Shown here one piece after another: positions 330-60,093 of a stretch of DNA of 64,000 bases. A program made the position numbers and the translations under genes. The stretch is from positions 3,713,025-3,777,024 of the forward strand of contig CM082596.2 of assembly GCA_040954595.2 (NCBI GenBank). The letters run 5' to 3'. Numbering within the stretch: the stretch's first letter is position 1; the number at the start of each line of letters is the position of its first letter. The DNA comes from Balanoglossus misakiensis. Taxonomy: Eukaryota > Animalia > Hemichordata. Below the pieces are notes generated by a model, which was not told the origin of the DNA, did no database searches, and saw only the letters and a program-made list of their open reading frames with translations.

Positions 330-647
330 CGTCCACCGTCAGCCTGGCACTACAGGTAACTTCTCCGGCGTTGTTGGCAGCCTTTATCGTGAACGTCCCG
401 GCATCTTCTGGGAATGCCTCTTGAATGACCAATGAACAGAACCCGTGGGCTCCATGGACAATGCGGAAGTCTGGAGACGTCTGAATTTCATGGCCTTCTC
501 TAAACCACGTGATTTCAGGCGGCGGTCTCCCCAAGACTTTGCAGTCAAAGCGGGCAGAGCCTCCTTCCACCACGTCACAGTTAGTGATCTTCTGATAGAA
601 TCTAGGGGGGACAGCTCTGTCTACTGCTTCGGACCCACTCTCTTCAA
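330..647 (-). CDS. TTN: I-set Ig exon; gene continues beyond window
   Basis: PPRFYQKITNCDVVEGGSARFDC...CSARLTVD; donor GTAGGA. Confidence 0.9.

Positions 648-60093: not shown

What the first reader, a model, noticed from the sequence alone, without database searches (positions are those of the whole stretch)
330..60093. SESTD1, CCDC141 and titin joined in one splice-compatible reading frame
Seen in sequence: 74 minus-strand exons join in phase from a SEC14 domain through spectrin repeats to >=22 Ig domains. From knowledge (recalled sequences): 54.9-60.1 kb follows human SESTD1 (KLTRY.P.QLTE.FGG, TYDYG.QLLQA, LLDRLT.PV), 25.5-51.6 kb follows CCDC141 (VY.AMAE.LGEAW), and the exons from 15.4 kb down follow titin Z1-Z9. 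Vertebrate SESTD1, CCDC141 and TTN are separate neighbours in this order and orientation. Drosophila has a comparable zormin/sallimus arrangement, so the fused architecture is not unprecedented. Inference: this locus keeps the pre-fission state, with the fission points already marked by internal starts and stops, and could make lipid-binding (SEC14) spectrin-titin giant isoforms linking membrane to Z-disc.
Basis: partly seen in the sequence, partly recalled or inferred. Interest (0 to 1): 0.9.

Follow-up and report, generated by a model that had tools for sequence, protein, structure and literature searches.

The report
Acorn-worm connectitin: nested SESTD1-CCDC141-titin locus
This stretch of animal DNA, likely from an acorn worm, holds the SESTD1, CCDC141 and titin genes in a row, each part with its own predicted start or stop but with splice sites that would also let them be read as one giant protein; the arrangement is real, but it was named 'connectitin' in 2025 and joined versions are already predicted in other invertebrates.

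Summary
An independent exon model gives 73 minus-strand AG/GT exons from 60093 to 330 and one stop-free 4,736-aa frame (74 exons with a weak cassette). It runs from a partial SEC14 domain through spectrin repeats to 22 Ig domains. The closest relatives are acorn-worm proteins (82% Glandiceps, 78% Saccoglossus), and a tree puts it in the SESTD1/connectitin clade, not with Trio/Kalirin.

The SESTD1-to-CCDC141 splice has good comparative support: a strong donor, conserved in three acorn worms, at the same joint seen in joined models from six phyla. The join into titin has weaker support. 32411>25937 is not a gene boundary but an alternative end inside the CCDC141 unit. No RNA run was listed, so no junction was seen in a transcript.

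The idea is published (Hanashima 2025, PMC12198301), and a sea-urchin RefSeq model already spans all three parts. The CCDC141 internal start is shared across bilaterians, so this locus is not a unique pre-fission relic. The scan noted the same arrangement before in an arthropod genome. Verdict: a new member of a known kind. It adds a modest refinement: outside vertebrates the three parts likely remain one nested locus.

The parts
54914..60093 (-). SESTD1-like unit, 13 exons: C-terminal part of SEC14 (60093-59347), spectrin repeats, ~160-aa low-complexity linker, last 12 codons resemble the start of a spectrin helix A; 5' exons lie beyond the window
   Evidence: 82%/78% to Glandiceps/Saccoglossus SESTD1 over 570 aa; PF24915; the Glandiceps protein matches the Kalirin Sec14 structure 7ur2, E 9e-40
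54893..54913 (-). Junction 1 donor (GTAAGA after 54914); if unspliced it reads 6 codons to a TGA at 54895-54893
   Evidence: donor outscores 83% of 66 true donors, and 0 of 3215 intronic GT reach it; Glandiceps and Saccoglossus models end just past the same place
51862..51871 (.). CArG-type box ~265 nt upstream of the CCDC141-type ATG (possible muscle promoter; not enriched over chance)
   Evidence: 6 in window against 4.8 expected
51480..51599 (-). CCDC141/zormin-type first coding exon (own ATG 51599, 40 aa, TISTIAIQAG motif); skipped in the joined form; no usable acceptor
   Evidence: 78% to the N-terminus of Saccoglossus P0106; acceptor score below all 66 training sites
32411..48436 (-). 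CCDC141-like spectrin rod, 16 exons, largely 123-nt + 192-nt phase-0 modules
   Evidence: 54-98% per exon to Saccoglossus P0106
29873..32410 (-). Alternative terminal extension: 845 open codons, Pro/Glu-rich (PEVK residues 45%), six copies of a MP..T.P[LMV][DEH]W-type repeat, stop 29875-29873, poly(A)-type hexamers at 29877, 29810, 29545, 29529
18191..25937 (-). Last spectrin repeat plus 9 Ig domains (zormin-like Ig block), 15 exons; unspliced read-through of the 18191 donor stops at 18137-18135
17611..17653 (-). 43-nt bridging exon (phase 1 to 2), required to keep frame into titin
   Evidence: only such candidate in the intron; 0 as strong in 25,075 bp of control introns; no match in the Saccoglossus model, which is out of frame there
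15260..15429 (-). Titin start exon: 17 open codons, then ATG at 15380 and first half of Z1
   Evidence: leader resembles the Saccoglossus leader
330..15429 (-). Titin N-terminal region, 28 exons, 13 Ig domains; continues beyond the window
   Evidence: Z1 and Z2 hits in PDB; colinear with Ig 15-27 of Diadema setosum P0073
11191..11298 (-). Optional duplicated 36-codon cassette (copy of the 11738-11628 exon), weak donor

Best explanation
This is one 'connectitin' locus, likely of an acorn worm, whose exons join in one open frame from SEC14 to titin, and which likely works as nested transcription units with alternative starts and ends plus read-through splicing. Predicted products: (A) a stand-alone SESTD1-like protein, when the 54914 donor is ignored and translation stops at 54893; (B) CCDC141/zormin-like proteins from the ATG at 51599, ending in the Pro/Glu-rich tail (29873), after nine Ig domains (18135), or continuing into titin through the 43-nt exon; (C) titin from the ATG at 15380; and (A+B, A+B+C) joined forms, in which 54914 splices to 48436, skips the CCDC141 first exon and completes a spectrin repeat. 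SHOWN: exons, frame, domains, orthology and conservation of the joints. INFERRED: that the joints are used in mRNA (about 0.8 for junction 1, 0.9 for junction 2, 0.6 for junction 3, 0.4 for one molecule crossing all three). Also inferred: that the long forms act as a weakly lipid-binding SEC14 head on a spectrin rod that tethers the titin N-terminus to membranes or costamere-like sites.
For: JUNCTION 1: donor stronger than all 3215 intronic GT. The two other acorn-worm SESTD1 models end 4 and 19 residues past the same point, with unrelated tails. The 12 residues before the donor rank first among 134, 135 and 118 linker 12-mers in the three species against a profile of 11 joined non-hemichordate proteins (shuffle p 0.004, 0.023, 0.009). 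16 of 22 records examined carry the SESTD1 core followed by the 48436-type repeat in one protein, from echinoderms, molluscs, an annelid, a nemertean, amphioxus and insects; 4 are SESTD1-only and 2 are Trio controls. JUNCTION 2: continuous in Saccoglossus P0106 (70% identity over model 836-4736) and in most joined models. JUNCTION 3: unique strong bridging exon. The leader before the titin Met resembles the Saccoglossus one (0 of 31,756 intronic peptides score as high when anchored; 0.1% of 8,000 by local score). Models of Diadema setosum (XP_072180970.1, all three parts), Haliotis and Owenia run on into Z1-type domains. INTERNAL UNITS: a conserved first exon with no acceptor. Saccoglossus is annotated as SESTD1 plus CCDC141-titin in adjacent accessions, and Diadema antillarum ends just past junction 3. 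Human CCDC141-TTN and fly zormin-sls transcripts are reported second-hand in PMC12198301 and PMC12657953.
Against: No transcript was seen. All homologous 'joined' proteins are gene predictions whose RNA support I could not check, and the search that found them asked only for proteins over 1,632 aa, so it cannot show how common joined forms are. Both annotated acorn worms split SESTD1 off. A Trio-derived spectrin profile gained only 0.8 bit from the junction-1 residues, and 49 of 300 shuffles did as well. The Saccoglossus model crosses junction 3 through an out-of-frame patch, and the 43-nt exon has 0% identity to it. Leader similarity could reflect conserved 5'UTR. The insect models did not show the Ig15-18 block. 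Lipid binding and muscle localisation are borrowed from Kalirin, mouse CCDC141 and fly zormin; PMC5888912 ties Z-discs to chordates.
Confidence: 0.7

Rival explanations
1. Three separate neighbouring genes (SESTD1, CCDC141/zormin, titin), as in vertebrates; the compatible splice sites are leftovers or are used only as rare noise.
For: Own ATG exon for CCDC141 with no acceptor; stops and poly(A)-type hexamers after each unit; the three inter-unit or alternative-end introns are among the five longest (6.5, 6.5, 2.2 kb against a median of 220 nt); both acorn-worm annotations end SESTD1 there; phase 0 is the default in the spectrin part.
Against: A leftover donor should decay, yet it outscores all 3215 intronic GT and its upstream helix pattern is kept in three acorn worms; the same joint appears in joined models from six phyla.
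Confidence: 0.22
2. One constitutive giant gene: only the full SEC14-spectrin-Ig protein is made, and the internal starts and stops are incidental.
For: Single open frame; a sea-urchin model of this shape exists.
Against: The 51599 first exon is conserved across bilaterians and cannot be spliced into; an 845-codon alternative tail with its own stop and poly(A) signals exists.
Confidence: 0.05
3. The gene is Trio/Kalirin or obscurin (UNC-89) rather than connectitin.
For: SEC14 plus spectrin is the Trio N-terminus; several orthologous records carry automatic names such as 'kalirin-like' or 'unc-89'.
Against: 21-31% identity to the 13 Trio/Kalirin-type rows against 35-82% to the connectitin-type rows; the tree separates them 100/100; no RhoGEF, PH or SH3 hit among the 47 coding stretches scanned.
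Confidence: 0.01

Closest known systems
Connectitin (SESTD1-CCDC141-CON/TTN), Hanashima et al. 2025, PMC12198301
   Same: Order, orientation and domain content: SEC14, spectrin repeats, Ig domains. The paper's SEC14 data set includes Saccoglossus XP_006823022.1, the window's 78% relative.
   Different: The paper describes the single gene for cnidarians and placozoans (with RhoGEF and kinase domains) and three genes in bilaterians; it does not describe junction-level read-through in hemichordates in the text I read. The window shows no RhoGEF, and its C-terminus lies outside the window.
Saccoglossus kowalevskii XP_006823022.1 (SESTD1-like) + XP_006823021.1 (titin-like, 6,732 aa)
   Same: Direct orthologues: 78% and 70% identity; same first exon, same donor position, CCDC141 part joined to titin.
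   Different: Annotated as two genes; model out of frame at junction 3; no match to the 845-codon tail.
Diadema setosum XP_072180970.1 (titin-like, 6,593 aa)
   Same: One predicted protein from SEC14 through spectrin repeats to titin-type Ig domains; its Ig 17-23 are best hits of window Ig 12-18 in order.
   Different: 14 rather than 9 Ig domains before Z1; a prediction, and the D. antillarum model stops at junction 3.
Drosophila CG15822 - zormin - sallimus
   Same: Same three-part order; zormin and kettin/Sls are isoforms of one locus.
   Different: Fly sequences were not compared here; other insect models join SEC14 to the zormin part but did not match the window's Ig15-18 block.
Trio/Kalirin (SecSR RhoGEFs)
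   Same: SEC14 followed by spectrin repeats; internal promoters.
   Different: Separate clade; RhoGEF domains after the spectrin rod, where the window has Ig domains.

Membership tests
Connectitin locus | N-terminal SEC14 (CRAL-TRIO-like) domain | tested here: met
   Window exons 60093-59347 align to P0001 from residue 100 on, inside its PF13716 match (81-198) and its match to Kalirin Sec14 7ur2. Partial in the window; the single short exons gave no Pfam hit alone.
Connectitin locus | SEC14-spectrin part groups with SESTD1-type proteins, apart from Trio/Kalirin | tested here: met
   27-row tree, 100/100 split. No vertebrate SESTD1 or cnidarian row was included.
Connectitin locus | CCDC141/zormin-type spectrin block followed by Ig domains | tested here: met
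   PF25075, PF25101, PF00435 hits; relatives named CCDC141-like; 9 Ig. Human CCDC141 itself was not compared.
Connectitin locus | Titin/Sls N-terminus directly downstream, same strand | tested here: met
   Best single-domain PDB matches are Z1 and Z2 of titin; 70% to Saccoglossus titin-like.
Connectitin as one gene | A transcript spanning all three parts | not testable with these tools
Vertebrate-type titin | Z1-Z9 domain order | tested here: inconclusive
   Z1 and Z2 tested; an upstream Ig also matches Z2 best. The Z3-Z9 labels are recalled, not from a call; order is colinear with the Diadema model.
Vertebrate-type titin | A-band Ig/FN3 super-repeats and kinase | not testable with these tools
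   Beyond the window; no genome held.
Trio/Kalirin | DH-PH RhoGEF and SH3 after the spectrin rod | tested here: not met
   Ig domains follow the rod; no such Pfam hit in 47 coding stretches or 69 intronic ORFs.
SecSR lipid-binding module | Phospholipid or lysolipid binding | not testable with these tools
   Shown for Kalirin Sec14 and suggested for SESTD1 in PMC9823006; not tested for this protein.

The most novel reading that the evidence does not exclude
Outside vertebrates the connectitin gene never truly split: acorn worms and other invertebrate bilaterians still make a full SEC14-spectrin-titin protein through a conserved splice that skips the CCDC141 first exon, giving titin a lipid-binding membrane anchor at its Z end; separate SESTD1 would then be a vertebrate novelty, revising the published 'three genes in bilaterians'.
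Probability: 0.35. Interest if true: 0.55.

Novelty: new member of a known kind. Interest (0 to 1): 0.33.

Why it matters
It gives exact, testable splice junctions in an invertebrate deuterostome for a published but largely synteny-based idea about where titin, SESTD1 and the cardiac GWAS gene CCDC141 came from. If the long form is expressed, nested starts rather than gene fission would explain why the three genes have stayed together, and titin would have had a membrane-binding head. It does not reveal a new kind of gene.

Tried and rejected
- No whole genome is held.
- Sequencing runs: no RNA holder was listed for window 29800-39300; this is no evidence either way, and no reads were laid.
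- Search for long (1,592-4,545 aa) proteins with the 32602 exon: 2 candidates, none scored.
- Spectrin-profile test of junction 1: inconclusive (47.8 against 47.0 bits; 49 of 300 shuffles and 26 of 200 linker controls as high).
- CArG boxes are not enriched (6 against 4.8). MEF2-type 10-mers are enriched (18 against 8.4) but AT-rich and not tied to the starts; not used as evidence.
- 69 intronic ORFs of 60 aa or more (of the 99 listed) gave no Pfam hit above a curated cut-off, so no nested gene or transposon protein was found.
- The 845-codon tail had no Pfam hit and no blastp hit among the session's proteins; the Atlas query for it did not complete.
- The Atlas query for exon 39216 gave only generic spectrin clusters.
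- Parser exons 62210, 61906 and 54084 were rejected as repeat-derived or low-scoring.
- Trio/Kalirin identity was rejected.
- No structure or complex prediction was run, since it would not bear on splicing.

Full report
WHAT IS THERE. The window is intron-rich animal DNA (about 39% G+C) with all coding exons on the minus strand. A self-trained exon parser, seeded with hand-picked coding stretches, returned 76 exons. I removed three junk calls and the CCDC141-type first exon, added the 60093-60003 exon and cut the long 32602 exon at 32411. The resulting 73 AG/GT exons give 4,736 residues with no stop. Pfam on single exons finds SESTD1-type and other spectrin repeats from 57.4 to 32.4 kb and I-set Ig domains from 24.7 kb down. 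The N-terminal part of SEC14 lies outside the window.

WHAT IT IS RELATED TO. The best hits of a SESTD1-part exon are Glandiceps talaboti and Saccoglossus kowalevskii SESTD1-like proteins, 82% and 78% identical over 570 residues, so the source is likely an acorn worm (inference). In a 27-row tree the window sits with these two (100/100) inside a SESTD1/connectitin clade separated from 13 Trio/Kalirin-type rows (100/100); no vertebrate SESTD1 row was available. The rest of the model matches Saccoglossus XP_006823021.1 at 70% over residues 836-4736. The first two Ig domains after the ATG at 15380 have titin Z1 and Z2 as best single-domain matches among solved structures. The Ig just before titin also prefers Z2, so this is suggestive, not specific. 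The Z3-Z9 labels are recalled and come from no call.

JUNCTION 1 (54914>48436). The donor outscores 83% of the gene's 66 training donors, and none of 3,215 intronic GT reach it; unspliced, the frame stops six codons later. The Glandiceps and Saccoglossus models end 4 and 19 residues after the same point, with unrelated tails. Many spectrin repeats here are encoded as a 123-nt plus a 192-nt phase-0 exon with the intron just before the helix-A tryptophan, and 48436 is such a 123-nt exon. A search for long relatives of the Glandiceps protein returned 68 proteins. Of 22 records then examined, 16 carry the SESTD1 core and the 48436-type repeat in one chain, from six phyla; 4 are SESTD1-only and 2 are Trio controls. 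A profile of the 12 residues before the joint in 11 such non-hemichordate proteins ranks the 12 residues before the donor first among 134, 135 and 118 linker 12-mers in the three acorn worms. Against this, a generic spectrin profile did not favour the join, the search was restricted to long proteins, and all those records are predictions.

THE CCDC141 START. An exon with its own ATG (51599) and no usable acceptor is 78% identical to the start of the Saccoglossus protein. Its TISTIAIQAG-type motif opens 10 proteins that I picked by eye from the 28 long ones listed; those with names are from acorn worm, amphioxus, tick, barnacle, wasp, and flatworm. The internal start is therefore old and widespread, not a mark peculiar to this lineage.

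JUNCTION 2 (32411>25937) is an alternative end, not a gene boundary. Unspliced, the exon runs 845 more codons of Pro/Glu-rich sequence to a stop followed by poly(A)-type hexamers. Spliced, it continues the spectrin rod as in Saccoglossus and most joined models. Human CCDC141 is described as spectrin repeats plus an Ig domain, so its end lies further downstream.

JUNCTION 3 (18191>17653>15429). A direct splice would shift frame. The 43-nt exon is the only strong candidate that restores it, and none as strong was found in 25,075 bp of control introns. The 17 open codons before the titin Met resemble the Saccoglossus leader beyond the intronic null, although 37% of intronic 17-codon windows are stop-free and a conserved UTR is not excluded. 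Models of Diadema setosum, Haliotis and Owenia continue into Z1-type domains; D. antillarum ends just past this point, Tubulanus ends after the same Ig, and the Saccoglossus model crosses through an out-of-frame patch. Support is moderate.

HOW IT LIKELY WORKS. One locus with nested units: SESTD1-like alone; CCDC141/zormin-like forms with three possible ends; titin alone; and joined forms. No RNA run was listed, so use of the joints is inferred. By analogy, the SEC14 head would bind lipid weakly: Kalirin Sec14 binds lysophospholipids at about 20 uM, with similar residues in SESTD1 (PMC9823006). The rod would tether the titin end to membranes: mouse CCDC141 is at costameres, Z-line and nuclear envelope, and fly zormin at the I-band and H-zone. 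Whether acorn-worm muscle has Z-discs is open; PMC5888912 ties Z-discs to chordates.

WHAT IS KNOWN. Hanashima et al. 2025 named the SESTD1-CCDC141-TTN unit 'connectitin'. They showed the order in human and fly, reported a single gene in cnidarians and placozoans, and concluded three genes in bilaterians. Seven paper searches listed no paper on read-through at this locus in hemichordates; subscription papers and figures were not covered. An earlier scan note (e1-7596966) reached the same reading for an arthropod.

PAPERS SEEN. PMC12198301: parts 1-5 of 7 (all main text, start of the references), the supplement list and searched passages; figures and the unread parts of the supplements may show bilaterian joined forms. 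PMC12657953: passages and section 7. PMC5888912, PMC9823006 and PMC7039190: passages. Labeit 2006 and Burkart 2007: not seen, cited second-hand.

VERDICT. The locus is real and correctly identified. It is a new member of a known kind, with a modest refinement that RNA data could settle. Interest 0.33.

Noticed in passing
window 29873-32410 (-): 845-codon Pro/Glu-rich alternative C-terminal tail with six ~35-40-residue repeats ending in P[LMV][DEH]W; no Pfam hit and no match among the session's proteins; possibly an elastic or binding segment of a short CCDC141-like isoform.
   Followed up: partly
window 11738-11628, 11298-11191, about 10816, and 10417-10181 (-): Tandemly duplicated small cassette exons sharing an 'RL.[HK]EI[SF][FL]' motif within the titin Z region; the second has a weak donor and the third looks decayed; a candidate alternatively spliced repeat region.
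   Followed up: partly
window 51862-51871 and 16349-16358: CArG-type boxes upstream of the CCDC141-type ATG and about 1 kb upstream of the titin ATG; count not above chance.
   Followed up: partly
P0106 (Saccoglossus XP_006823021.1), about residues 2046-2085: The public model goes out of frame in the last Ig before titin, likely an assembly or annotation error, so it cannot vouch for junction 3.
   Followed up: partly
P0007, P0009, P0107, P0109, P0096: Orthologous connectitin-type proteins carry misleading automatic names (kalirin-like, triple functional domain protein-like, MYLK, unc-89).
   Followed up: yes
P0007/P0074/P0076 (Branchiostoma): In amphioxus models the SESTD1 and CCDC141 spectrin repeats join with no low-complexity linker, whereas acorn worms, echinoderms, molluscs and insects have a long variable one.
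   Followed up: partly
window 39217-48313: 9.1-kb intron with a (CAT)48 repeat at 44791-44935; no Pfam-recognisable ORF among those scanned; other simple repeats at 6980-7162, 19896-19969, 32999-33081, 62131-62202.
   Followed up: partly
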